From contig CALVYK010000001.1 in assembly GCA_944372195.1 (NCBI GenBank), positions 47,644-111,643 on the forward strand: DNA of 64,000 nt. Reading direction: 5' to 3'. Origin of the DNA: an uncultured Bacilli bacterium. Lineage in GTDB: Bacteria > Bacillota_I > Bacilli_A > RF39 > UBA660. Made by a program: the position numbers and the translations under genes. Each line of letters opens with the position of its first letter. Position 1 is the stretch's first letter. Below, one piece after another: positions 7,602 through 16,911 of the stretch. Under the pieces are notes generated by a model, which ran no database searches, was not told where the DNA came from, and saw nothing but the letters and a program-made list of their open reading frames with translations.

Positions 7602-7725
7602 CTATAAATATTATATCGTAATTAATTGAATTATCAAATGTTATTTATATAATTAATCATTTAAAATTACAAAAATGTCATATTATTTTATTTATATTTA
7701 GTGTATAATTTAGTTGGGTGGAATT

Positions 7726-8391
7726 ATGAAAATATTAATTGTCGAAGATGATGCTACTATAAGAAGTGGTTTAAAATATTGTTTAGAATATGAAAATTTT
7801 GAAGTTGATGAAGCAATAGGTATTGATTGTTTAGATAAATTAGATAATGTTTCTTTAATTTTATTAGATTTAAATTTACCTGATACTAATGGTTTTGATT
7901 TGTTTAAAAAAATAAAAGAAATTAAGAATATTCCAATTATATTTTTAACGGCTAATGATTTGGAACCTTCCATAGTTATGGGATTAGATATGGGAGCCGA
8001 TGATTATGTAACTAAACCGTTTAAAACAAGAGAATTAATATCAAGAATTAAAAATGTTTTAAGAAGAAATAATCATTATGATCTTATAAAAATAAAAAAT
8101 ATTACAATTGATTTAAAACAAGCTAAAGTATTCAAAAATGGAAAAGACGTTAATTTAACAGCTTTAGAATATAAAATATTATTAACTTTGGCTCTTAATC
8201 CTAATCAAGTATTTACTCGGGAAAAGATTTTAGCTGATATTTGGGATGTTAATGAAGAATATGTATATGATAATACTTTAACTGTTTATATTAAAAGAAT
8301 AAGAGAAAAAATAGAAGATGATGTAACTAATCCGAAAATTATTAAAACAGTAAGAGGAATCGGCTATAAAATAGGTGATGAGAGTGAATAA
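7726..8391 (+). CDS. OmpR-family response regulator; start set at MKILIVEDD
   Basis: REC plus winged-helix domains; extended -10 TGTATAAT at 7702-7709 excludes the longer ORF-track start. Confidence 0.88.
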   Translation: MKILIVEDDATIRSGLKYCLEYENFEVDEAIGIDCLDKLDNVSLILLDLNLPDTNGFDLFKKIKEIKNIPIIFLTANDLEPSIVMGLDMGADDYVTKPFKTRELISRIKNVLRRNNHYDLIKIKNITIDLKQAKVFKNGKDVNLTALEYKILLTLALNPNQVFTREKILADIWDVNEEYVYDNTLTVYIKRIREKIEDDVTNPKIIKTVRGIGYKIGDESE

Positions 8392-9541
8392 AAAATATTT
8401 TATTGTTAATTTTATAGCTATTTTGATTATTATACTATTTTATTTTTTAATTTCTAATGTTATTAATAATAATTATGAAAAACAAATAATTGATAATGAA
8501 AGTTATTTAATTGGTAATTTAATAACTAAACATCCTGATTTAAAAGAAGATATAATATCAAGTTATTTAATTAAAGATAATTATGAAATAGGTAATGATT
8601 TAATAAATGAATACAATTTAATTACTATTAAAAATAACAATATTATTATTTTATTATATTGTTTAATAAGTGCTTTAGTATTATTTGTAATTAATTTTAT
8701 TTATATTAGAAATATCTACAAAAAAATAAGTAAAATTGATAAATATATGAACAATATTTTAAATGATGATTATTCAATTGATATTAAAGATTATTGTGAA
8801 GGGGATATTAGTAATTTAAAAAACGATATATATAAAATGACTATTAAATTAAAAGAACAAAGTGAGTTACTAATTAAAGAGAAAAAGTATTTAGAAGAAA
8901 CTTTACAAGATATATCTCATCAAATCAAAACACCTTTAACTAGTATGTATATGATAAATGATATTTTATTTAATTCCAAAGACCAAAATGTTAAAAAAGA
9001 ATTTTTAATAAAAAATAAAAATCAAATTGAAAGGATTGAATGGTTGGTAACTAGTTTACTTAAACTATCAAGACTAGAAAGTGGAACAGTTAAATTAAAA
9101 AAAGAAAAAATAAATTTAAAAGAATTAATAGATAAAGCCATTGAACCAATTAATGTTTTTTTAGAACTAAAAAATATTAAATTAATTAAAAATATCGAAG
9201 ATACTACTATTAATGTTGATATTAATTGGACTGTTGAAGCATTACTTAATATAATTAAAAATGCATGTGAACATACTCTTGATAAAATAGAAATAATAGG
9301 TAGTACTAATCCTCTTTATACCGAAATAAAAATAGTTGATAATGGTGTAGGTATTAGTAAAAAAGATATTAAACATATTTTTGAACGATTTTATAAGGGA
9401 AATCACAATAAAGAAAGTATCGGAATTGGGCTTAATATGTCTAAAAAAATAATTAATCTACAAAATGGTTTAATTGAGGTATCTTCTAAAGAAGGTGTTG
9501 GTAGTACTTTTATAATTAAGCTATATAAAAATAATTTGTGA
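8375..9541 (+). CDS. sensor histidine kinase (two TM helices, HisKA, HATPase_c)
   Basis: H-box LQDISHQIKTPLT, N and G boxes; overlaps the response-regulator stop codon. Confidence 0.85.
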   Translation: MMRVNKKYFIVNFIAILIIILFYFLISNVINNNYEKQIIDNESYLIGNLITKHPDLKEDIISSYLIKDNYEIGNDLINEYNLITIKNNNIIILLYCLISALVLFVINFIYIRNIYKKISKIDKYMNNILNDDYSIDIKDYCEGDISNLKNDIYKMTIKLKEQSELLIKEKKYLEETLQDISHQIKTPLTSMYMINDILFNSKDQNVKKEFLIKNKNQIERIEWLVTSLLKLSRLESGTVKLKKEKINLKELIDKAIEPINVFLELKNIKLIKNIEDTTINVDINWTVEALLNIIKNACEHTLDKIEIIGSTNPLYTEIKIVDNGVGISKKDIKHIFERFYKGNHNKESIGIGLNMSKKIINLQNGLIEVSSKEGVGSTFIIKLYKNNL

Positions 9542-9543
9542 CG

Positions 9544-9569
9544 AAATTGTAATTAATTTAGTCATTTAA
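9544..9569 (+). promoter_or_regulatory. conserved upstream motif AAATTGT(A/C)A(C/T)-N6-AGTCATTTAA (copy 1 of 3); candidate response-regulator direct-repeat site or promoter
   Basis: Near-identical 60-70 nt 5' regions at 9541-9613, 10972-10999 and 14264-14334 precede all three ABC genes. Confidence 0.45.
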
Positions 9570-9613
9570 TTGTAATAATTATTTAATATAATTATCTTGG
9601 AAGGAGAAATAAT

Positions 9614-10297
9614 ATGGAAATATTAAAAGTAGAAAATTTGTGCAAAAATTATGGTAAAGGAGAAACTTTAGTAAAAGCTTTAGATAATGTTAGCTTTTCA
9701 GTTGAAAAAGGTGAGTTTATTGCTATAGTAGGAAGTAGTGGTTCAGGTAAATCAACTTTATTACATATTTTAGGTGGTGTAGATAGACCAACAAGTGGAA
9801 AAGTATTTGTTGATGGAGTTGATGTATATAAATTAAACGAAACTAATTTAGCAATATTCCGTCGTCGTCAAGTTGGTTTAATTTATCAATTTTATAATTT
9901 GATTCCTATATTAAATATTAAAGAAAATATAACTTTGCCAATTTTATTAGATAATAAAAAACCAGATGAAAAATATTTAAATGAATTAATTGAAACATTA
10001 GGATTAAGTAAAAGAGTAAATCATTTACCTAATGAATTATCAGGTGGTCAACAACAAAGAGTTAGTATTGGTAGAGCTTTGATGAATAGACCGGCTTTAT
10101 TGTTAGCTGATGAACCAACTGGTAACTTGGATAGTAAAGCAGGACGTGAAATAATTGAATTATTAAAACTATCTAATCAAAAATATAAACAAACTATTAT
10201 TATGATTACTCATGATCATAATTTAGCTCTATGTGCCGATAGAATAATTACTTTAGAAGATGGTAAAATAATAAGTGATGAAAAAAATAATAAATAA
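9614..10297 (+). CDS. ABC transporter ATP-binding protein (MacB/BceA/LolD type)
   Basis: Walker A GSSGSGKST, signature LSGGQQQRV, Walker B LLLADEPT. Confidence 0.9.
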   Translation: MEILKVENLCKNYGKGETLVKALDNVSFSVEKGEFIAIVGSSGSGKSTLLHILGGVDRPTSGKVFVDGVDVYKLNETNLAIFRRRQVGLIYQFYNLIPILNIKENITLPILLDNKKPDEKYLNELIETLGLSKRVNHLPNELSGGQQQRVSIGRALMNRPALLLADEPTGNLDSKAGREIIELLKLSNQKYKQTIIMITHDHNLALCADRIITLEDGKIISDEKNNK

Positions 10298-10300
10298 TGT

Positions 10301-10329
10301 TTGACAAAATAATTAATTTATAGTAAAAT
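10301..10329 (+). promoter_or_regulatory. sigmaA promoter, module copy 1
   Basis: TTGACA (10301-6), 17-nt spacer, TAAAAT (10324-9). Confidence 0.7.
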
Positions 10330-10335
10330 GTATAT

Positions 10336-10454
10336 AGATATGAATTATTTCATATATTAAAAAAAGAGATACATTTAATTTTGGATGTTAAGTGTTTTCT
10401 CTAATTATGTTTTGTTGAGAAAACACCGTTCAAAGAAGAATCGGTGTTTTCGTT
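10336..10454 (+). ncRNA. plus-strand leader/sRNA copy 1 with hairpin-1, antiterminator and terminator alternatives
   Basis: Hairpin ACATTTAA...TTAAGTGT; GTGTTTTCTC (10398-10407) is complementary to the terminator left arm GAGAAAACAC (10418-10427). Terminator stem GAAAACACCG/CGGTGTTTTC followed by GTTT. Confidence 0.55.
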
Positions 10455-10472
10455 TAAGATTAGTCCTTATTT

Positions 10473-10559
10473 TTAAGGACTAGGATTGTGTAAAGAACAA
10501 TCATAGCAAATGCTACAATTAGTTGCATTATATATCCTTTCTATAGTTTTAATTTCCAT
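10473..10559 (-). CDS. micro-ORF 1 (28 aa) MEIKTIERIYNATNCSICYDCSLHNPSP
   Basis: RBS GGAGGTGAT (10563-71) at consensus spacing; two in-frame paralogs follow; stop codon sits inside hairpin TAGTCCTTA..TAAGGACTA (10461-82). Confidence 0.5.
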   Translation of the reverse strand: MEIKTIERIYNATNCSICYDCSLHNPSP

Positions 10560-10632
10560 AGAATCACCTCCATCTTTAAAATAAATTAAAAATAGAGTAA
10601 AACACCTAACTATTAAACATATCTCTAAATTA

Positions 10633-10661
10633 ATTATAAATTAATTTAATATAAAAGTCAA
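10633..10661 (-). promoter_or_regulatory. minus-strand sigmaA promoter for micro-ORF 1
   Basis: -35 TTGACT (complement of 10656-61), 17-nt spacer, -10 TATAAT (complement of 10633-8). Confidence 0.65.
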
Positions 10662-10690
10662 CTATAAATTAATTATTTTGCGGATTAATA

Positions 10691-10719
10691 TTGACAGTGA
10701 TGTTAATTTATAGTAAAAT
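10691..10719 (+). promoter_or_regulatory. sigmaA promoter of the degenerate module copy
   Basis: TTGACA, 17 nt, TAAAAT. Confidence 0.55.
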
Positions 10720-10734
10720 AAATATATATATGAA

Positions 10735-10797
10735 TTAATTAGTATTATAAAAATTAATTAGATTTGAATTAATCCTTTCTATAAATTTTTTAATCAT
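10735..10797 (-). pseudogene. degenerate, truncated micro-ORF copy (MIKKFIERINSNLINFYNTN)
   Basis: Retains RBS GGAGGTGATC and the conserved start region but is only 20 aa and has no recognisable minus promoter. Confidence 0.35.
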
Positions 10798-10849
10798 AGA
10801 AGATCACCTCCATATTAATGATTTTTGATGATAAAAATTATTAATACAA

Positions 10850-10957
10850 TTATTTCATATATTAAAAAAAGAGATACATTTAATTTGCAACATTAAATGT
10901 TTCCTCTATTTTGTTGGATAAAGAAAACACCATCCTTAAGTTGAACGGTGTTTTTTT
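10850..10957 (+). promoter_or_regulatory. leader copy with a strong intrinsic terminator, 85 nt upstream of FtsX permease 1
   Basis: Perfect hairpin ACATTTAAT..ATTAAATGT, then AAAACACC/GGTGTTTT plus a T7 run (10951-7). Confidence 0.55.
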
Positions 10958-10971
10958 GTTATTTAATATTA

Positions 10972-10999
10972 CAAAATTGTCACTATATAAGTCATTTAA
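10972..10999 (+). promoter_or_regulatory. conserved upstream motif copy 2 (CAAAATTGTCAC-N6-AGTCATTTAA)
   Basis: Same motif as upstream of the ATPase gene and permease 2. Confidence 0.4.
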
Positions 11000-11041
11000 A
11001 AATAATAATATTTTGTTATAATATCTTAAAGGAGTAATATT

Positions 11042-13525
11042 ATGAAAATATTAAATATTTTGACTATTAAACATTTAAAAGCAAATAAAAAAAGAACCAT
11101 TTTAACAATCATGGGAATCATGCTAGCCACTTTTTTAATGATTGAATTAGGGCTATTATTTTCTAGTTTTAGAGATAATGGAATTCGAACAACTATTAAA
11201 TATAATGGAGATTATCATGTTAATTTAAATGTGAAAAAAGAAGATTTAAATTTCATTTCTAAAAATGATAATGTTTTAGATTATAAATATAAGTCTAATT
11301 TAGGATATTCATTATATGAAGGATTACAAAATAAAAAATATCTACAAGTTTTAACAGCGTCTAAAAGTTATTTAGATGATTTAAAGTTAATTGAAGGAAG
11401 ATTACCAAATAATGAAAATGAAGTCATTATTTCAAATAATATTAAAACTGAAGGAAATGTTGATTTAAATGTTGGAGATACTATTAAATTAAATATTGGT
11501 CAAAGACAGTGTGATGGCAAATTATTAGGGGAAAGTGCTTATGTAGTTGAATATAAATATTTGAGTGATGGAACAGTAGAAATTGTAAAAGAAGAACATT
11601 TAATAAATACATCGCCAAAAGAATATAAAATTGTTGGTATCGTTGAAAAAGATATATATGAAGAATATTCTAATCCAGGATATAGTGTATTTACAATTTC
11701 AGAACCTATCGATTTATTAAATGTATATGTAAAATATAAAAATGTTTTTAAGACAATACAAAATAGTGATTCTATTATAAAAAATTTAAATTATGAAAGT
11801 GATTTAAAATATAATGATAGTTTACTTTATTATTATGGAATAGGAGAAAATAATAATTTTATTAAATTTTCAATTTCAATATTACTAATTATTTTAATAT
11901 TAATTACATTTGCAAGTGTTATTGTAATTTATAATGCTTTTGCTATATCAGTTACCGAACGAATAAAACAATTTGGTTTATTTTCAAGTATCGGCGCTAC
12001 TAAGAAACAATTAAGATATACAATATTTTTTGAAGTTTTTGTAGTAGGTACTATTGGTATTGTACTAGGATTAATTTTATCTTTTATTGGTATTAATATT
12101 ATTTTATCAATTATTAATAAATTATTAGTTAATAGTTTATCTATTCCATTAGAATTATCAATATATCCTTTATATATATTGATTTCTCTTATTTTTATTA
12201 TTTTAACTATTGCTTTAGCAGCTTATTATCCTTCTAAAAAAGCGAGTAGAGTAAGTCCTATTGAAGCAATTAGATTAAATAATGAAATTAAAATTAAAAA
12301 GTTCAGAACACCTAAATTAATTCAAAAATTAGGTATTGAAGCAGAGGTTGCTTACAAAAATATGAAAAGAAATAAGAAAAAATATAATATAACTATTTTA
12401 TCATTATTTTTAAGTATTGTTTTATATGTTTCATTTAGTTCGTTTTTAAACTATACAATTGAATCTAGTAAAGATGCTATGGATATTCCAAGTTATGATT
12501 ATTTTGTTAGATTATCTGGTAAAGATAAAAATAAAATAGATGAAATCATTAATCAAGTTTTAAATGTTGAGGGAGTAAAGCAGAATAGTTTAATTGAATT
12601 AAAAACATTAGAATCTGATTTTAATCTAGATTATTATACTGATGAAGTAATAAACGAATTTGGAATAAGTAGTAGTCCTAAACAATATGTTCATTTATAT
12701 ATGTTAGATGATAAAACATATGAACAAGTTAAAAAACAACTTAATATTAAAGATAGACCAATTTTGTTAAATTATTTAGATGAAGAGGGATGGATAAATA
12801 AAGATATCAAAGGCTTTAATTTATATAAAGATATTAGTAGTTTAAATATATATGATAATAATAATAATTTTGTTTTAGATAATATTTATATGTCTGATAT
12901 TAAAATAGAAAATGTTGAACCTTGGATTTATACATATACTTTAATTGTTGATGAAGATACATTTAATAAAATTAAAACCGATGAATATAATATAACATTA
13001 ACTTTAAATGGCGATAATTTTACTAAAGTCGATGAATTATTACATCAAGATATTTTAGATGTTAGTATTAGTACTGATAATATTAAACAAACGATGCAGG
13101 AACAATACAATACTTTATTAGCATATAAAATAATATTATATGGTTTTGTTGTTTTGATAACTTTAATCGGTGTTACTAGTGTTATTAATACAATAAATAT
13201 GAGTGTTACTTTAAGAAGACAAGAATTTGCAATGTTAAGAAGTATCGGTTTAACACCTGAAGGATTTAATAAAATGATAATTTTTGAATGTTTATTATTT
13301 GGTTTGAAATCATTAATTTATGGAATATCGATATCATTAATTATAACTTATTTATTTCATTTAGCATTTAATAAAATGGCAAAAACTAGTTTAATAATAC
13401 CATATACAAGTATAATAATATCTGTATTTAGCATATTTATAATTGTTTTAATGACTATGTGGTACACTACTAAAAAAATAAAAAAAGAAAACATTTTAGA
13501 TATTATTAGAAAAGAAAGTATTTGA
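11042..13525 (+). CDS. ABC transporter permease, FtsX/MacB-BceB family, paralog 1
   Basis: 827 aa; N-terminal TM, two large extracytoplasmic domains and two FtsX 3-4 TM bundles. Confidence 0.85.
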   Translation: MKILNILTIKHLKANKKRTILTIMGIMLATFLMIELGLLFSSFRDNGIRTTIKYNGDYHVNLNVKKEDLNFISKNDNVLDYKYKSNLGYSLYEGLQNKKYLQVLTASKSYLDDLKLIEGRLPNNENEVIISNNIKTEGNVDLNVGDTIKLNIGQRQCDGKLLGESAYVVEYKYLSDGTVEIVKEEHLINTSPKEYKIVGIVEKDIYEEYSNPGYSVFTISEPIDLLNVYVKYKNVFKTIQNSDSIIKNLNYESDLKYNDSLLYYYGIGENNNFIKFSISILLIILILITFASVIVIYNAFAISVTERIKQFGLFSSIGATKKQLRYTIFFEVFVVGTIGIVLGLILSFIGINIILSIINKLLVNSLSIPLELSIYPLYILISLIFIILTIALAAYYPSKKASRVSPIEAIRLNNEIKIKKFRTPKLIQKLGIEAEVAYKNMKRNKKKYNITILSLFLSIVLYVSFSSFLNYTIESSKDAMDIPSYDYFVRLSGKDKNKIDEIINQVLNVEGVKQNSLIELKTLESDFNLDYYTDEVINEFGISSSPKQYVHLYMLDDKTYEQVKKQLNIKDRPILLNYLDEEGWINKDIKGFNLYKDISSLNIYDNNNNFVLDNIYMSDIKIENVEPWIYTYTLIVDEDTFNKIKTDEYNITLTLNGDNFTKVDELLHQDILDVSISTDNIKQTMQEQYNTLLAYKIILYGFVVLITLIGVTSVINTINMSVTLRRQEFAMLRSIGLTPEGFNKMIIFECLLFGLKSLIYGISISLIITYLFHLAFNKMAKTSLIIPYTSIIISVFSIFIIVLMTMWYTTKKIKKENILDIIRKESI

Positions 13526-13550
13526 CAAAATAATTAATCTATAGTAAAAT
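13522..13550 (+). promoter_or_regulatory. sigmaA promoter, module copy 2 (overlaps the permease 1 stop codon)
   Basis: TTGACA, 17 nt, TAAAAT. Confidence 0.65.
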
Positions 13551-13556
13551 GTATAT

Positions 13557-13671
13557 AGATATGAATTAATTCATATACTAAAAAAAGAGATACATTTAAT
13601 TTCCTATGTTAAGTGCTTTCTCTGTTAATTTTTTGGAAAGCACCGTTCAAAGCTGATCGGTGTTTTATTTT
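13557..13671 (+). ncRNA. plus-strand leader/sRNA copy 2
   Basis: Same architecture as copy 1. Carries GTGCTTTC and GAAAGCAC, a compensatory change relative to copy 1; terminator AAAGCACCG/CGGTGTTTT. Confidence 0.55.
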
Positions 13672-13769
13672 AATCTTTGTTTTTTATTGCTAATACTGTA
13701 TAAAATACAATCATAGAAAATATTATAACTAATTGCATTTGAAGTCCTTTCATTTGTTCTGAAGGTCAT
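13665..13769 (-). CDS. micro-ORF 2 (34 aa) MTFRTNERTSNAISYNIFYDCILYSISNKKQRLK
   Basis: RBS GGAGGTGATC; paralog of micro-ORFs 1 and 3 with a C-terminal extension. Confidence 0.45.
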   Translation of the reverse strand: MTFRTNERTSNAISYNIFYDCILYSISNKKQRLK

Positions 13770-13835
13770 AAAGATCACCTCCGTTTTTACTAAAACAGAG
13801 TAAAACACCTAACTATTAAATATATCTCTAAATTA

Positions 13836-13864
13836 GTTATAAATTAATTTGATACAAAAGTCAA
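13836..13864 (-). promoter_or_regulatory. minus-strand promoter for micro-ORF 2
   Basis: -35 TTGACT (complement of 13859-64), 17-nt spacer, -10 TATAAC. Confidence 0.55.
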
Positions 13865-13888
13865 CTATAAATTAATCACTTAATATTA

Positions 13889-13917
13889 TTGACAAAATAA
13901 TTAATCTATAGTAAAAT
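13889..13917 (+). promoter_or_regulatory. sigmaA promoter, module copy 3
   Basis: TTGACA, 17 nt, TAAAAT. Confidence 0.65.
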
Positions 13918-13923
13918 GTATAT

Positions 13924-14043
13924 AGGTATGAATTAATTCATATATTAAAAAAAGAGATACATTTAATTTTGCATGTTAAGTGTTTTCCCTATATTGTTTG
14001 TGTGAAAAAACACCGTTCAAAGTTGAATCGGTGTTTTCATTTA
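13924..14043 (+). ncRNA. plus-strand leader/sRNA copy 3
   Basis: Hairpin-1 plus terminator GAAAAAACACCG/CGGTGTTTTC followed by ATTT. Confidence 0.55.
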
Positions 14044-14059
14044 AGATTAGTCCTTATTT

Positions 14060-14146
14060 TTAAGGACTAGAATTGTATAAAATACAATCATAGCAAATGC
14101 TACAATTAATTGCATTTGAAGTCCTTTCATTTATATTGAAGGTCAT
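14060..14146 (-). CDS. micro-ORF 3 (28 aa) MTFNINERTSNAINCSICYDCILYNSSP
   Basis: RBS GGAGGTGATC (14151-9); stop codon inside hairpin 14048-14069. Confidence 0.5.
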   Translation of the reverse strand: MTFNINERTSNAINCSICYDCILYNSSP

Positions 14147-14212
14147 AAAGATCACCTCCGTTTCTACTAAAACAGAGTAAAACACCTAACTATTAAACAT
14201 ATCTCTAAATTA

Positions 14213-14241
14213 ATTATAAATTAATTTAGTATAAAAATCAA
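14213..14241 (-). promoter_or_regulatory. minus-strand promoter for micro-ORF 3
   Basis: -35 TTGATT, 17-nt spacer, -10 TATAAT (complement of 14213-8). Confidence 0.55.
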
Positions 14242-14263
14242 TTATAAATTAACACAATATGAC

Positions 14264-14290
14264 AAAATTGTCACGGCATTAGTCATTTAA
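14264..14290 (+). promoter_or_regulatory. conserved upstream motif copy 3
   Basis: GACAAAATTGTCAC GGCATT AGTCATTTAA; the downstream 5'UTR is about 85% identical to 9560-9613. Confidence 0.4.
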
Positions 14291-14334
14291 TTGTAATAAT
14301 AATTTAATACAATTATTATGGAGGGAGAAATAAT

Positions 14335-16911
14335 ATGAAAATATTAAATAATTTAACAATTAAACACTTAAAAGCAAATAAAAAAAGAACTATAGTAACA
14401 ATTATAGGTATTATTTTATCAACTGCTTTAATGGTTGGAATTGGATTGTTATTTTCAACAGTAAGAGATAATTCAGTGAAAATGATCATTGAAAATAATG
14501 GTGATCATCACGTGGCAATTGAACTAGAAAAATCTAAATTAGATTTTATTGCTAAAAACGATAGTGTATTAAAATATAAATATAAATCTAGTTTAGGTTA
14601 TTCATTATATGAAGGTATTAATAATGAGTATAAACCTTATATTAAAGTATTAACAGCATCAGATGAATATTTAAATGATTTAAAACTGATAGAAGGAAGA
14701 TTACCTAATAACGAAAACGAAATAGTTATACCTGAACATTTAGAAACTAATGGCGAAGTAAAATTAAATATTGGTGATAAAATTGTTTTAAATATCGGCC
14801 AAAGAGTAGCTAATGATGGAACATTATTGGGCGACACTCCATATGTTTATGAATATTCTTGTGATGAAAATAATGTTTGTACAACAGATGTTAATAAATC
14901 AGATGAACATTTAATTAATACTGTAAAGAAAGAATATACAGTAGTAGGAATTATAGAAAGAGATATTCAAGAAGATTATCAAGATCCAGGATATAATGCT
15001 TTTACATTATCTGAACCTAGTGATTTATTAACTGTTTATGTTAATTATAAAAATATTAAAGATACATATAAAAATACCAAAATTATTGCTAAGAATTTAG
15101 GTAATGAAGAAGTATATGATAATTTATATTATGGTATAAGTTATAATGATAATTTACTGGCATTTTCTGGTGTATCTAATTATAGTAATATGATAGATTC
15201 TATGGCGTTTATTATAATTATAATTCTAGCTTTAGTTTCAATTGCTTGTATTATTGTTATATATAATTCATTTGCTATTTCGGTAATGGAAAGGAAAAAA
15301 CAATTTGGTTTATTTTCAAGTATCGGTGCTACTAAAAAACAATTAAAGCATACTGTATTTTTTGAAGCTTTTATAGTAGGTATTATTGGTATACCATTAG
15401 GTGTTTTATCAGCTTATTTAGGTATTGGAATAGTTTTAATGATCGTTAATAAATTATTACCTAATATGTTTGATTTCCCACTTGCCTTAGCGACATATCC
15501 ATTATTCATTATTATTCCAATAATATTTATGATAATAACAATATTAGTTTCAGCTTTCTTACCAGCTAGAAGTGCTAGTAAAGTAAGTCCTATTGAAGCT
15601 ATTAGATTAAATGATGATATAAAAATAAAATCAAAAAAATTAAAAACACCTAAAATAATTAAATTTTTTGGTGTTGAAGGTGAAATAGCTTATAAAAATA
15701 TGAAAAGAAATAAGAAAAAATATCGAATAACTATAATTTCATTATTTATAAGCATAGTATTATTTGTATCATTTAGTAGCTTATTAAAATATGGATTAAG
15801 AAGTGTTTATGATTATACTGAACTACCAGAATATGAATATACATTTAATATGAGTAGTGATAATAAAGAAAGTATAGATAATATAATTAATCAAGTCTTA
15901 AAAGTAGATGGTATTAGAAAATATAGTATAATTAGACCAATTTATTATTATGCTGATAAAAATGATGATTATTATACAAAAGAATTAAAAGATAGTTATG
16001 ATGAAAGTTCTTTTGAAAATGATGTTATAAATATAATGATTCTTACTTTAGATAATAAATCTTATGAACAATATAAAAAAGAAATCAAATTAAATTCAGA
16101 TTATCCAATTTTATTAAATATATTAAATAAAATAGATTATACAGATAATTCGAGAAAACAAATTAAAATAACACCTTACAATAAAATTACTTCTTTAGAA
16201 ATATTTAGTTATGATAAAAAAGTAAATCATAAATTAGAAAATATATTTATAACTGATATTTTACCATTTGGTGTTGATAATACTTATGTTAATACTATGA
16301 TGTTTGTAGTTAATGAAAGTATGTATAATGAATTAAAATATGATAATAATTATCAATTAGAAATGTGTTTAATAGCTGATAATTATGATGAATTTGATAA
16401 AATGTTAGATAGTGAAAGTAAAGAAAATATTTTAACAGATGATATAAGCATCTATACTATGAATATTAAAAAAGAAATGCAATTATTATCCAATATAGTA
16501 TTTGTTATTAAATTATTATTATATGGTTTTATTAGTTTAGTAACATTAATCGGTATTACTAGTGTAATAAATACTATTAATACTAGTATAGCTTTAAGAA
16601 AAAAAGAATTTGCCGTATTAAGAAGTATTGGACTTACTCCTCATGGATTTAATAAAATGATGTTATTTGAATGTTTATTCTTTGGACTTAAGTCATTATT
16701 ATATGGTTTACCTGTTTCATTTATAGTTATATATTTATTCCATTTATCATTTAATGGTATTGTAGCATTTGATAGTTTGTTAATACCATATGGAAGTATA
16801 TTAATAGCTATATTTGGAGTATTTATTATAGTTTTAATAAGTATGTGGTATGCTACTATAAGAATTAAAAAAGCCAATATTTTAGATGCAATAAGAGAAG
16901 AAAATATTTAA
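14335..16911 (+). CDS. ABC transporter permease, FtsX/MacB-BceB family, paralog 2
   Basis: 858 aa, about 50% identical to permease 1, same topology. Confidence 0.85.
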   Translation: MKILNNLTIKHLKANKKRTIVTIIGIILSTALMVGIGLLFSTVRDNSVKMIIENNGDHHVAIELEKSKLDFIAKNDSVLKYKYKSSLGYSLYEGINNEYKPYIKVLTASDEYLNDLKLIEGRLPNNENEIVIPEHLETNGEVKLNIGDKIVLNIGQRVANDGTLLGDTPYVYEYSCDENNVCTTDVNKSDEHLINTVKKEYTVVGIIERDIQEDYQDPGYNAFTLSEPSDLLTVYVNYKNIKDTYKNTKIIAKNLGNEEVYDNLYYGISYNDNLLAFSGVSNYSNMIDSMAFIIIIILALVSIACIIVIYNSFAISVMERKKQFGLFSSIGATKKQLKHTVFFEAFIVGIIGIPLGVLSAYLGIGIVLMIVNKLLPNMFDFPLALATYPLFIIIPIIFMIITILVSAFLPARSASKVSPIEAIRLNDDIKIKSKKLKTPKIIKFFGVEGEIAYKNMKRNKKKYRITIISLFISIVLFVSFSSLLKYGLRSVYDYTELPEYEYTFNMSSDNKESIDNIINQVLKVDGIRKYSIIRPIYYYADKNDDYYTKELKDSYDESSFENDVINIMILTLDNKSYEQYKKEIKLNSDYPILLNILNKIDYTDNSRKQIKITPYNKITSLEIFSYDKKVNHKLENIFITDILPFGVDNTYVNTMMFVVNESMYNELKYDNNYQLEMCLIADNYDEFDKMLDSESKENILTDDISIYTMNIKKEMQLLSNIVFVIKLLLYGFISLVTLIGITSVINTINTSIALRKKEFAVLRSIGLTPHGFNKMMLFECLFFGLKSLLYGLPVSFIVIYLFHLSFNGIVAFDSLLIPYGSILIAIFGVFIIVLISMWYATIRIKKANILDAIREENI

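What the first reader, a model, noticed from the sequence alone, without database searches (positions are those of the whole stretch)
10365..10455. Plus-strand leader has mutually exclusive hairpin / antiterminator / terminator pairings, with a compensatory base change between copies
In copy 1, hairpin-1 (ACATTTAA-loop-TTAAGTGT) is followed by TTTCTCT. Its right arm GTGTTTTCTC (10398-10407) is perfectly complementary to the terminator left arm GAGAAAACAC (10418-10427). The same left arm also pairs with CGGTGTTTTC (10442-10451) to form the terminator. This is a classic three-state attenuator.

Copy 2 (13589-13671) has GTGCTTTC in the hairpin-1 right arm and GAAAGCAC in the terminator left arm. 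That is a T-to-C change matched by an A-to-G change, which keeps the antiterminator Watson-Crick. The terminator stem tolerates the change as a G-U pair. This covariation argues that the antiterminator pairing is under selection.

The degenerate copy at 10850-10957 lies in the correct orientation 85 nt upstream of the FtsX permease 1 start. This suggests conditional read-through into the permease gene. Read-through of the other copies would run antisense across the micro-ORF mRNAs.
Basis: seen in the sequence. Interest (0 to 1): 0.85.

Follow-up and report, generated by a model that had tools for sequence, protein, structure and literature searches.

The report
Antisense small RNA of toxin-like module
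The supposed "leader" is most likely a separate small RNA with its own promoter, made opposite a tiny membrane-peptide gene in the way known RNA-controlled toxin–antitoxin pairs are built, and not a switch that controls the neighbouring transporter gene.

Summary
One arm is 6 nt off: GTGTTTTCTC lies at 10392-10401, and it pairs perfectly with GAGAAAACAC at 10417-10426. That second arm is also the left arm of the terminator.

The "classic attenuator" reading does not hold:
- Each copy has its own near-consensus promoter and folds into a free-standing RNA of about 118 nt with three hairpins.
- Three of the four window copies, and at least 54 of 74 relatives, run head-on into a 21-27-aa hydrophobic peptide gene. 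That gene has its own promoter and a hidden ribosome-binding site, and it shares a two-way terminator with the small RNA.
- The module sits in unrelated intergenic sites in many uncultured Mycoplasmatota/Bacilli genomes, and its copy number differs between strains.
- Both permease genes carry their own GraR/BceR-type operator downstream of the terminator.
- The alternative helix costs 4-18 kcal/mol in nearly all copies and shrinks to about 6-8 bp in the divergent subfamily. Several copies carry the T-to-C change without the A-to-G change.
- The same terminator arm pairs better, and more consistently, with the 5' end of the peptide mRNA.

Some co-variation in the alternative helix remains unexplained.

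Verdict: a new family of par-like type I toxin-antitoxin-type modules, of moderate interest.

The parts
10301..10329 (+). Promoter of small-RNA copy 1 (TTGACA-17 nt-TAAAAT)
   Evidence: Matches 11 of 12 consensus positions. Identical promoters lie at 10691-10719, 13522-13550 and 13889-13917. A promoter is present upstream of the relatives as well.
10337..10456 (+). Small-RNA copy 1, about 118 nt. It comprises a 5' hairpin (10338-10355), an A-run (10359-10365), hairpin-1 (10366-10402), a spacer, and the terminator (10417/10419-10451) with its U-rich tail. This is the finding itself.
   Evidence: Minimum free energy -33.8 kcal/mol, z = -5.1, three hairpins. Covariance-model score 118 bits. Hairpin-1 and the terminator form in the predicted fold of all 72 copies, and the 5' hairpin in 62 of 72.
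10392..10426 (+).
   Evidence: 10 nt, 100% complementary. A fold forced to contain it is 5.7 kcal/mol worse than the minimum free energy.
10419..10451 (.). Two-way intrinsic terminator shared by the small RNA (+) and the peptide mRNA (-)
   Evidence: Stability is -16.5 kcal/mol on the plus strand and -17.1 on the minus strand. It is flanked by an A-tract and a U-tract. In alignment A4 eight column pairs show double changes.
10460..10528 (-). Micro-ORF 1, frame B: MQLIVAFAMIVLYTILVLKNKD (putative membrane toxin)
   Evidence: Conserved in at least 54 of 74 relatives. Variable sites at codon positions 1/2/3 are 13/9/20 of 21, the pattern expected for coding sequence in this frame. No match in Pfam, NCBIfam, PHROGs or PDB.
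10563..10661 (-). Promoter (TTGACT-17-TATAAT, 10661 to 10633) and 5' UTR of peptide mRNA 1. The UTR holds the 5' hairpin plus the GGUGUUUUACUCU motif (10626 to 10593), then the stem-loop that hides the GGAGG ribosome-binding site.
   Evidence: Promoter matches 11 of 12 positions. The 30-nt motif occurs three times in the window against 0 expected. The ribosome-binding site is paired in 29 of 29 distinct 5' UTRs.
10686..10958 (+). Degenerate, chimeric small-RNA copy. It contains the promoter and the left half of the 5' hairpin, then an antisense remnant of a micro-ORF 5' region (10772-10825), then hairpin-1 and the terminator (10848-10958).
   Evidence: 87.6 bits. No alternative helix of 7 bp or more was found.
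13522..13673 (+). Small-RNA copy 2 with its promoter. It carries GTGCTTTC 13613-13620 and GAAAGCAC 13636-13643.
   Evidence: 104 bits.
13670..13864 (-). Micro-ORF 2 (MKGLQMQLVIIFSMIVFYTVLAIKNKD, 13670-13753), its 5' UTR, and its promoter (TTGACT 13864-13859, TATAAC 13841-13836)
13889..14044 (+). Small-RNA copy 3 with its promoter. The alternative helix here is only 7 bp (13980-13986 with 14007-14013).
   Evidence: 117 bits.
14047..14241 (-). Micro-ORF 3 (MKGLQMQLIVAFAMIVFYTILVLKNKD, 14047-14130), the stem-loop hiding its ribosome-binding site (14177 to 14156), the 5' hairpin and motif, and the promoter (14241 to 14213)
10970..11022 (+). GraR/BceR-type operator TACAAAATTGTCAC (10970-10983) and an extended -10 box TGTTATAAT, upstream of permease 1. 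A second operator, TGACAAAATTGTCA, lies at 14260-14273 upstream of permease 2.
   Evidence: These form direct-repeat family D7. They match the published operator ACAAAWKTGT / GTGACA-N4-TGTCA (PMC3128592).

Best explanation
The plus-strand element is an independently transcribed antisense small RNA of about 115-125 nt. It belongs to a compact, repeated two-gene module.

**Anatomy**
- A strong constitutive-looking promoter drives an RNA with a 5' hairpin, an A-run, hairpin-1 and an intrinsic terminator.
- Converging on it from the minus strand is an mRNA with its own promoter.
- That mRNA encodes a 21-27-aa hydrophobic peptide with a charged tail (core M-Q/E-L-I-V-x-F-x-x-I-V-F/L-Y-T-I-L-V-L-K-N-K-D).
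- The mRNA's strong ribosome-binding site is locked in a stem-loop.
- The two RNAs share a two-way terminator. They are therefore perfectly complementary over at least about 35 nt, or about 100 nt if the mRNA reads on to hairpin-1 plus U7 on its own strand.

**Inferred mechanism** (by analogy with par/Fst, txpA/RatA and bsrG/SR4)
- The small RNA pairs with the peptide mRNA at the shared terminator.
- It also pairs at the conserved GGUGUUUU(A)CUC motif near the mRNA 5' end.
- This keeps the peptide untranslated and/or triggers decay of the mRNA.

- The motif GUGUUUUC(UC) occurs three times per module: in the 3' flank of hairpin-1, in the 3' arm of the terminator, and near the mRNA 5' end.
- All three copies are complementary to the terminator's 5' arm, GAGAAAACACC.
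- Hairpin-1 of the small RNA and the mRNA's 5' hairpin are inverted duplicates of each other.

**Shown in silico:** promoters, folds, the coding frame, conservation, genomic contexts and folding energies.
**Inferred:** expression of both RNAs, toxicity of the peptide, and the antisense mechanism.
For: **Own promoter and stable fold**
- All four window copies have a promoter matching 11 of 12 consensus positions. Relatives have one too.
- The three-hairpin fold has z-scores of -3.9 to -6.1 for the three full copies and -2.1 for the degenerate copy. It is 93% paired across 77 distinct copies.
- The G·U pairs in the 5' hairpin and in hairpin-1 are tolerated only on the plus strand. Hairpin-1 is worth -12.2/-10.1/-8.1 kcal/mol on the plus strand against -4.5/-4.9/-3.6 on the minus strand.

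**Shared terminator**
- Its stability is the same on both strands in copies 1 and 3.

**The peptide gene**
- The convergent micro-ORF has its own promoter.
- Frame B shows the codon-position variability expected of a coding frame, and it is conserved where frame A is not.
- The ribosome-binding site is sequestered in 29 of 29 distinct 5' UTRs.

**A self-contained, repeated module**
- I found 85 covariance-model hits in MAGs of uncultured Bacilli/Tenericutes and in Ca. Faecisoma.
- The module lies in unrelated contexts.
- Its copy number varies between strains that share an identical ATPase protein.

**A better partner for the terminator arm**
- The terminator's 5' arm pairs with the mRNA 5' motif at -12.3 and -11.6 kcal/mol in the two subfamilies.
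- It pairs with the hairpin-1 flank at only -10.8 and -6.8.

**Match to a known architecture**
- The layout matches the published defining features of par-type loci (PMC7472228).
Against: - There are no expression data, so both transcripts and their ends are predictions.
- Toxicity is untested. The peptide matches no known toxin family and lacks the Fst PXXXG motif.
- I found no par-like direct repeats that would give complementarity at the translation start.
- About 10 solo small-RNA copies, without a micro-ORF, sit in a conserved position directly upstream of permease 1 and in the same orientation. This leaves room for a locus-specific role.
- The alternative helix shows more double changes than shuffles do. 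This explanation treats that as a by-product, or as a secondary pairing, without proof.
Confidence: 0.72

Rival explanations
1. The plus-strand RNA is a three-state transcription attenuator: hairpin-1 acts as the anti-antiterminator, alongside an antiterminator and a terminator. Regulated read-through then feeds the FtsX permease genes, or extends antisense transcription across the micro-ORFs.
For: - Copy 1 has a perfect 10-bp alternative helix that overlaps the terminator arm. A repeat this long appears in only 2% of shuffles.
- The helix is 85% paired in 77 copies. Five column pairs show double changes, a level reached in 4 of 500 shuffles.
- Within the close subfamily, cognate arm pairs bind slightly better than non-cognate ones (p = 0.04).
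- Solo copies lie in the same orientation upstream of permease 1 in several genomes.
Against: - Each copy has its own promoter, so it is not the leader of an upstream-initiated operon.
- Most copies face a convergent gene, in unrelated genomic contexts.
- There is no conserved leader peptide and no Rfam match, so no sensor is evident.
- The antiterminator fold is a mean of 10.9 kcal/mol worse than the terminator fold. Its pair probability has a median of 0.02.
- The helix falls to about -3.9 kcal/mol in the divergent subfamily.
- I tally about 6-7 uncompensated changes, including C·A in 4-5 copies.
- All ten nucleotides of the 5' strand are already paired inside hairpin-1 before the partner strand is transcribed.
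- The permeases have their own GraR/BceR-type operator after the terminator.
Confidence: 0.07
2. The alternative pairing is functional, but not as a gene-control attenuator. It would be a conformational switch within the small RNA, or within a read-through peptide mRNA on the minus strand. The switch would mask or expose the GAGAAAACACC arm for pairing with the mRNA 5' motif.
For: - The same arm can pair with three partners that carry the same motif.
- The plus-strand C·A mismatches would be G·U pairs on the minus strand. This fits an A-U to G·U to G-C path on that strand.
- If the mRNA reads through, its 5' end pairs with its 3' end over about 27 bp. The predicted energy is -84.1 against -61.3 kcal/mol for the shorter form.
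Against: - The case is purely computational.
- The helix is weak or absent in the divergent subfamily.
- Hairpin-1 is poorly formed on the minus strand.
- The co-variation could arise from template switching within a quasi-palindrome, with no selection involved. This is inference.
Confidence: 0.12
3. The micro-ORF encodes a non-toxic small membrane protein that works with the BceRS/AB-like sensing and transport system. The antisense RNA simply tunes its level.
For: - The modules cluster inside this operon, with up to 4-5 copies. They lie between the histidine kinase, ATPase and permease genes in several species.
- The peptide has no similarity to known toxins.
Against: - The same module also lies next to PPDK, PFOR, P-type ATPase, holA, a Bax-inhibitor-family gene and rpsD.
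- It forms tandem arrays, and its presence or absence varies between strains. Both features are typical of type I toxin-antitoxin repeats.
Confidence: 0.1
4. The repeats are a selfish, MITE-like intergenic element bounded by inverted repeats. Neither the RNA nor the peptide has a function.
For: - The element is dispersed, multi-copy and restricted to intergenic regions.
- Its two ends, each comprising a promoter and a 5' hairpin, are inverted copies at about 73% identity.
Against: - Frame B is under purifying selection.
- Near-consensus promoters, the hidden ribosome-binding site and the terminator are kept across divergent copies.
Confidence: 0.03

Closest known systems
par (Fst / RNA I-RNA II) type I toxin-antitoxin loci of Enterococcus and other Firmicutes
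   Same: - The promoters converge.
- The toxin mRNA and the small RNA share a two-way intrinsic terminator.
- An intramolecular stem-loop in the mRNA hides the ribosome-binding site.
- The product is a small hydrophobic peptide with a charged C-terminal tail.
- Loci are chromosomal and often repeated (PMC7472228).
   Different: - The peptide has no PXXXG motif and no Pfam or NCBIfam match to Fst.
- There are no DRa/DRb direct repeats. Instead, the 5' parts of the two RNAs are inverted duplicates, so they carry the same hairpin rather than complementary ones.
- The small RNA is about 118 nt with three hairpins, against about 40 nt for RNA II as given in PMC7472228.
- The host clade is uncultured Mycoplasmatota/Bacilli.
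Bacillus subtilis 3'-overlapping type I systems (txpA/RatA, bsrG/SR4, yonT/SR6)
   Same: - An antisense RNA of about 100 nt or more converges on the toxin mRNA and overlaps its 3' end.
- The antisense RNA has its own promoter and terminator (PMC5848175 abstract).
   Different: - The overlap here may be only the terminator, about 35 nt. It reaches about 100 nt only if the mRNA reads through to hairpin-1 plus U7.
- The peptides are much shorter (21-27 aa against 58 aa for YonT) and unrelated in sequence.
hok/sok (with mok and the 5'-3' fold-back)
   Same: - A strong ribosome-binding site serves an overlapping upstream reading frame (frame A) ahead of the conserved peptide frame.
- A long-range 5'-3' pairing of the mRNA is predicted if it reads through.
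   Different: - The antisense RNA acts at the 3' end and not at the translation start.
- Frame A is not conserved in length.
- The fold-back depends on an unverified 3' end.
- The comparison with hok/sok rests on my own knowledge of that system.
Terminator/antiterminator leaders (trp-type, T-box, PyrR, riboswitch expression platforms)
   Same: In some copies a terminator's 5' arm can alternatively pair with an upstream segment.
   Different: - No co-oriented regulated gene follows in most copies.
- The element has its own promoter.
- There is no sensor element.
- The alternative helix is not conserved and is energetically disfavoured.

Membership tests
Transcription attenuator (terminator/antiterminator leader) | Lies in the 5' leader of a co-oriented gene or operon that it regulates | tested here: not met
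   3 of 4 window copies and at least 54 of 74 relatives are followed by a convergent micro-ORF. Only about 10 solo copies precede the permease, and there a GraR/BceR-type operator and a -10 box intervene.
Transcription attenuator (terminator/antiterminator leader) | Intrinsic terminator | tested here: met
   A hairpin of -14 to -17 kcal/mol followed by a U-rich tail. It forms in 72 of 72 predicted folds, and eight column pairs co-vary.
Transcription attenuator (terminator/antiterminator leader) | Conserved, competitive antiterminator helix | tested here: inconclusive
   - The helix is 10 bp in copy 1 and 8, 7 and under 7 bp in the other window copies.
- Forcing it costs a mean of 10.9 kcal/mol.
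- It is 85% paired with 5 double-change column pairs, but many changes are uncompensated.
Transcription attenuator (terminator/antiterminator leader) | A sensing element (leader peptide, or a ligand-, tRNA- or protein-binding domain) | tested here: not met
   Rfam gives no match with an E-value below 0.7. The plus-strand ORFs differ in start codon, frame and length between copies.
Type I toxin-antitoxin system (general) | Small hydrophobic peptide gene under purifying selection | tested here: met
   Frame B is conserved. Variable sites at codon positions 1/2/3 are 13/9/20 of 21.
Type I toxin-antitoxin system (general) | Antisense RNA gene with its own promoter, complementary to the toxin mRNA | tested here: met
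   Promoters are predicted on both strands, and the convergent transcripts overlap at the shared terminator. This is sequence evidence only, and expression was not tested.
Type I toxin-antitoxin system (general) | The peptide is toxic and the RNA neutralises it | not testable with these tools
   This needs expression experiments.
par / Fst family | Convergent promoters and a two-way terminator | tested here: met
   The feature is listed in PMC7472228.
par / Fst family | Intramolecular 5' stem-loop that sequesters the ribosome-binding site | tested here: met
   GGAGG is paired in 29 of 29 distinct 5' UTRs, and the sequence inside the stem varies between them.
par / Fst family | Direct repeats DRa/DRb that give complementarity at the translation start | tested here: not met
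   No conserved complementarity to the translation start was found. The conserved extra pairing is between the terminator arm and the mRNA 5' motif.
par / Fst family | Toxin with a PXXXG motif, detectable as Fst | tested here: not met
   None of the variants contains Pro or Gly in the hydrophobic core. There is no hit in Pfam, NCBIfam or PDB.
Any Rfam RNA family | Score at or above the family's gathering threshold | tested here: not met
   The best score is 27 bits against a threshold of 60, for a fungal snoRNA model located elsewhere in the region.

The most novel reading that the evidence does not exclude
The three copies of GUGUUUUC(UC), together with the one GAGAAAACACC arm, could form an RNA-mimicry circuit.

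- The peptide mRNA's 5' hairpin is a look-alike of hairpin-1 in the small RNA.
- The terminator arm of the small RNA could therefore choose between three partners: its own terminator strand, its own hairpin-1 flank, or the mRNA 5' motif.
- Binding of one RNA could then decide whether the nascent small RNA terminates or extends as antisense across the whole peptide gene.
- Alternatively, it could decide whether a read-through mRNA locks itself shut through a hok-like 5'-3' fold-back.

This would amount to target-responsive termination control inside a type I toxin-antitoxin module.
Probability: 0.08. Interest if true: 0.7.

Novelty: new member of a known kind. Interest (0 to 1): 0.4.

Why it matters
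- It removes a false lead. The element is not a novel attenuator controlling an antimicrobial-peptide transporter.
- It defines an apparently undescribed family of small-RNA/peptide modules. I found 85 copies in uncultured gut Mycoplasmatota/Bacilli, a clade for which two of my literature searches turned up no described type I toxin-antitoxin systems.
- The family comes with a covariance model (R1) and a clear peptide signature.
- It shows par-like design features recurring with an unrelated peptide: convergent promoters, a shared two-way terminator and a hidden ribosome-binding site.
- Its arrangement of repeated motifs is unusual and could be tested for RNA-RNA competition.
- For annotation, it warns that gene callers pick the wrong frame in these loci, choosing frame A (41-53 aa) over the conserved frame B.

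Tried and rejected
- **Rfam**, with permissive thresholds on 9500-14600, found nothing relevant.
- **Peptide family searches** in Pfam, NCBIfam, PHROGs and PDB, on both frames, found no family.
- **Plasmid and phage collections** gave no match to the module.
- **Whole-length RNAduplex** of the small RNA against the mRNA 5' region gave long AT-rich alignments only about 1.5-2 SD better than shuffles. They were not informative, apart from two recurring cores.
- **U-tract strength.** I tested whether solo copies upstream of the permease have stronger U-tracts than module copies. They do not (7.3 against 7.2 T in 9 nt, from few classified copies), so I dropped the argument.
- **Automatic classification** of module against solo copies with regular expressions under-counted. 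I used the counts.
- **A conserved plus-strand leader peptide** as a ribosome sensor is rejected. Start codons, frames and lengths differ between copies (alignment).
- **Hairpin-1 as mainly the minus-strand terminator of the peptide mRNA** is weakened. It is 4-8 kcal/mol less stable on that strand. The invariant A-run, which reads as U7 on the minus strand, still suggests a back-up terminator.
- **Literature searches** found no described type I system in these taxa.
Full report
**1. The observation**

The sequences exist, with small coordinate errors.
- Hairpin-1 is ACATTTAA (10371-10378) pairing with TTAAGTGT (10388-10395).
- Its 3' flank GTGTTTTCTC lies at 10392-10401, not 10398-10407.
- That flank is 100% complementary to GAGAAAACAC at 10417-10426.
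- GAAAACACCG (10419-10428) pairs with CGGTGTTTTC (10442-10451) to form the terminator.
- Copy 2 carries GTGCTTTC (13613-13620) and GAAAGCAC (13636-13643).

The strength of the alternative pairing varies between copies.
- A perfect 10-bp inverted repeat arises in 2% of dinucleotide shuffles of copy 1. An 8-bp repeat arises in about 25%.
- The pairing is 8 bp in copy 2 and 7 bp in copy 3. No pairing of 7 bp or more was found in the degenerate copy.

**2. What surrounds it**

*The plus strand.*
- Each copy is preceded, about 35 nt upstream, by a promoter matching 11 of 12 consensus positions (TTGACA-17-TAAAAT). These lie at 10301, 10691, 13522 and 13889.
- From the predicted start, the RNA folds into three hairpins: a 5' hairpin, hairpin-1 and the terminator.
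- The z-scores are -5.1, -6.1 and -3.9 for the three full copies.

*The minus strand.*
- Converging on each full copy is a second transcription unit.
- It has a promoter TTGACT-17-TATAAT (10661 to 10633; 14241 to 14213).
- It has a conserved 5' hairpin followed by the motif GGUGUUUUACUCU. The 30-mer occurs three times in the window against 0 expected.
- It has a stem-loop that buries a strong GGAGG ribosome-binding site, for example at 14177 to 14156.
- It has two overlapping reading frames.

*The shared terminator.*
- The terminator hairpin is equally stable on both strands in copies 1 and 3: -16.5/-17.1 and -14.8/-14.9 kcal/mol.
- It is flanked by an A-tract and a U-tract.
- It is therefore a shared two-way terminator.

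**3. Relatives**

*Close strains.* Contigs that encode the identical ATPase protein have 745, 729, 767, 241 or 237 nt between the ATPase gene and permease 1. The module is therefore gained or lost between close strains.

*Wider search.*
- One genome-collection scan with a pattern from hairpin-1, followed by nhmmer, gave 74 distinct copies.
- Covariance model R1 gave 85 matches.
- The hosts are MAGs labelled uncultured Bacilli or Tenericutes. They include Candidatus Faecisoma merdavium, classed as Mycoplasmatota incertae sedis.

*What the copies look like.*
- The copies have their own promoter.
- At least 54 of 74 are followed within about 10 nt by the convergent micro-ORF.
- About 10 are solo copies that precede permease 1.

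*Where they sit.* The module lies next to unrelated genes:
- PPDK;
- PFOR and a P-type ATPase;
- a Bax-inhibitor-family gene and holA;
- rpsD;
- between the histidine kinase and the ABC ATPase.

It matches nothing in the plasmid or phage collections.

**4. Which frame codes**

- Frame B is conserved throughout. Variants include MQLIVAFAMIVLYTILVLKNKD, MELIVIFITIVLYTIIVLKKD and MEYLVMLLLILLAMIKFLDKED.
- Frame A varies from 4 to more than 60 codons.
- In 25 distinct 69-nt ORFs, the variable sites at frame-B codon positions 1/2/3 are 13/9/20 of 21. The entropies are 0.57, 0.19 and 0.86. This is the signature of purifying selection in frame B.
- The peptide matches no family in Pfam, NCBIfam, PHROGs or PDB.

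**5. Is the alternative helix a conserved antiterminator?**

*Energetics.*
- Across 72 copies, the predicted fold always contains hairpin-1 and the terminator.
- The best fold forced to contain the alternative helix is a mean of 10.9 kcal/mol worse. The range is 0.6-17.6. The window copies give 5.7, 8.9, 4.1 and 5.1.
- The summed pair probability between the two segments has a median of 0.02.
- In the divergent subfamily (GAUGUUUUACUCU / UAAAGAAAACACC) the duplex is worth only -3.9 kcal/mol.

*Co-variation.*

| Helix | Alignment | Cells paired | Column pairs with double change | Shuffle control |
|---|---|---|---|---|
| Alternative helix | A2 (MAFFT) | 83% | 5 | 141 of 500 shuffles reach it |
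| Alternative helix | A4 (structure-aware) | 85% | 5 | mean 2.4 ± 0.9; 4 of 500 reach it |
| Terminator | A4 | 92% | 8 | not given separately |
| Hairpin-1 | A4 | 96% | 0 | not given separately |

The zero for hairpin-1 is partly an artefact, because my search pattern fixed its left arm.

- It occurs in one lineage: window 13553, L005_6500, L088_4928 and L050_3559.
- The same U-to-C change occurs without compensation in L088_5694, L002_13962, L005_6084, L018:326-442 and L029_2344.
- A second position shows 3-4 compensated copies and 8-10 uncompensated ones.

*Judgement.* By my count of lineages, there are about 3-4 compensated events against 6-7 uncompensated ones. That is too mixed for a helix under strong selection, but it is not nothing.

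Two non-attenuator explanations are available, both inferred:
- The two arms form a quasi-palindrome 15 nt apart. Template-switch mutation can copy a change from one arm to the other.
- The uncompensated C·A pairs would be G·U pairs on the minus strand.

**6. A simpler origin for the complementarity**

- The motif GUGUUUUC(UC) occurs three times per module: in the hairpin-1 3' flank, in the terminator 3' arm, and near the mRNA 5' end.
- Hairpin-1 of the small RNA and the mRNA's 5' hairpin, together with their promoters, are inverted duplicates at about 73% identity.
- The terminator 5' arm pairs with the mRNA 5' motif at -12.3 and -11.6 kcal/mol in the two subfamilies. It pairs with the hairpin-1 flank at -10.8 and -6.8.
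- In the most divergent modules (L073, L081), my manual base-by-base pairing of the sequences listed extends the mRNA 5' motif's complementarity into the loop of the small RNA's terminator, to 10-12 bp. The mRNA's own terminator does not match there. This points to pairing between the two RNAs, but no tool call scored these stretches directly.

**7. Strand of function**

- The 5' hairpin and hairpin-1 contain many G·U pairs that alternate with A-U pairs. On the other strand these would be A·C mismatches.
- Hairpin-1 is worth -12.2/-10.1/-8.1 kcal/mol on the plus strand and -4.5/-4.9/-3.6 on the minus strand.
- The plus-strand RNA is therefore the selected structure.
- The invariant A-run before hairpin-1 reads as U7 on the minus strand. 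It may serve as a back-up terminator for the mRNA.
- If the mRNA reached it, its 5' and 3' ends would pair over about 27 bp. The predicted energy is -84.1 against -61.3 kcal/mol. This is speculative.

**8. The permease question**

- Downstream of the terminator, and upstream of each permease gene, lies TACAAAATTGTCAC (10970-10983) or TGACAAAATTGTCA (14260-14273).
- Both match the published GraR/BceR-type operator, ACAAAWKTGT / GTGACA-N4-TGTCA (PMC3128592).
- At permease 1 the operator is followed by an extended -10 box.
- The permeases therefore have their own regulated promoters.
- The solo small-RNA copy before permease 1 is conserved in several genomes. This is unexplained. It could be an orphan antitoxin, or a source of basal read-through.

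**9. Comparison with known systems**

- The module meets three defining features of par/Fst-type loci listed in PMC7472228. These are convergent promoters, a two-way terminator, and a 5' stem-loop that hides the ribosome-binding site (29 of 29 UTRs).
- It fails on two others: the DRa/DRb repeats and the PXXXG toxin motif.
- It therefore works like par, and like the 3'-overlapping Bacillus systems, but it is not a member of the Fst family.
- It fails most defining features of a transcription attenuator. It is not in a leader position, it has no sensor, and its antiterminator is not conserved.

**10. Verdict**

- The attenuator interpretation is not supported, although the alternative pairing exists and shows weak co-variation.
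- The best explanation (confidence about 0.7) is an antisense small RNA belonging to a new par-like, type I toxin-antitoxin-type family.
- Expression, toxicity and the exact pairing mechanism are inferred, not shown.

Noticed in passing
window 10970-10983 and 14260-14273: The inverted repeat (T)GACAAAATTGTCA(C) contains ACAAAATTGT and matches the published GraR/BceR-type operator. It sits about 30 nt upstream of a -10 box before each of the two FtsX permease genes. Only the permeases, and not the ATPase, appear to be under response-regulator control.
   Followed up: partly
window 11042-13525 and 14335-16911: Two paralogous large FtsX permeases (827 and 858 aa) follow a single ABC ATPase (9614-10297) and a response regulator / histidine kinase pair (7714-9541). 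The small-RNA/peptide modules separate the genes from one another.
   Followed up: no
window 10563-10575, 13774-13786, 14151-14163 (minus strand), and relatives: The strong GGAGGTGAT ribosome-binding site serves frame A. This overlapping reading frame varies from 4 to more than 60 codons between relatives. The conserved peptide, in frame B, starts 25-40 nt further on with a weaker GAAAGGA site. This could be mok/hok-like translational coupling. Gene callers annotate frame A.
   Followed up: partly
window 10460-10483 and 14046-14069: A perfect hairpin, TTAGTCCTTA-TTTT-TAAGGACTAG, covers the last codons and the stop codon of micro-ORFs 1 and 3. It is conserved in many relatives but absent from the copy-2 type (…AIKNKD). 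It also produced the weak Rfam rhtB hit.
   Followed up: no
window 10686-10958; also L001, L002, L018, L049, L085: The "degenerate" copy is a conserved chimera. A fragment of about 110 nt, carrying an antisense remnant of a micro-ORF 5' region, is inserted into the loop of the small RNA's 5' hairpin.
   Followed up: partly
L003:10688-10925 and L005:3340-3573 compared with window 10297-11042: Strains with an identical ATPase protein differ by presence or absence of a whole module between the ATPase gene and permease 1. The spacer is about 240 nt in some and about 745 nt in others.
   Followed up: yes
window 10359-10365 and every relative: An invariant run of 4-8 A lies immediately 5' of hairpin-1 in all 77 distinct copies. 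On the opposite strand it would be the U-tract of a weak terminator.
   Followed up: partly
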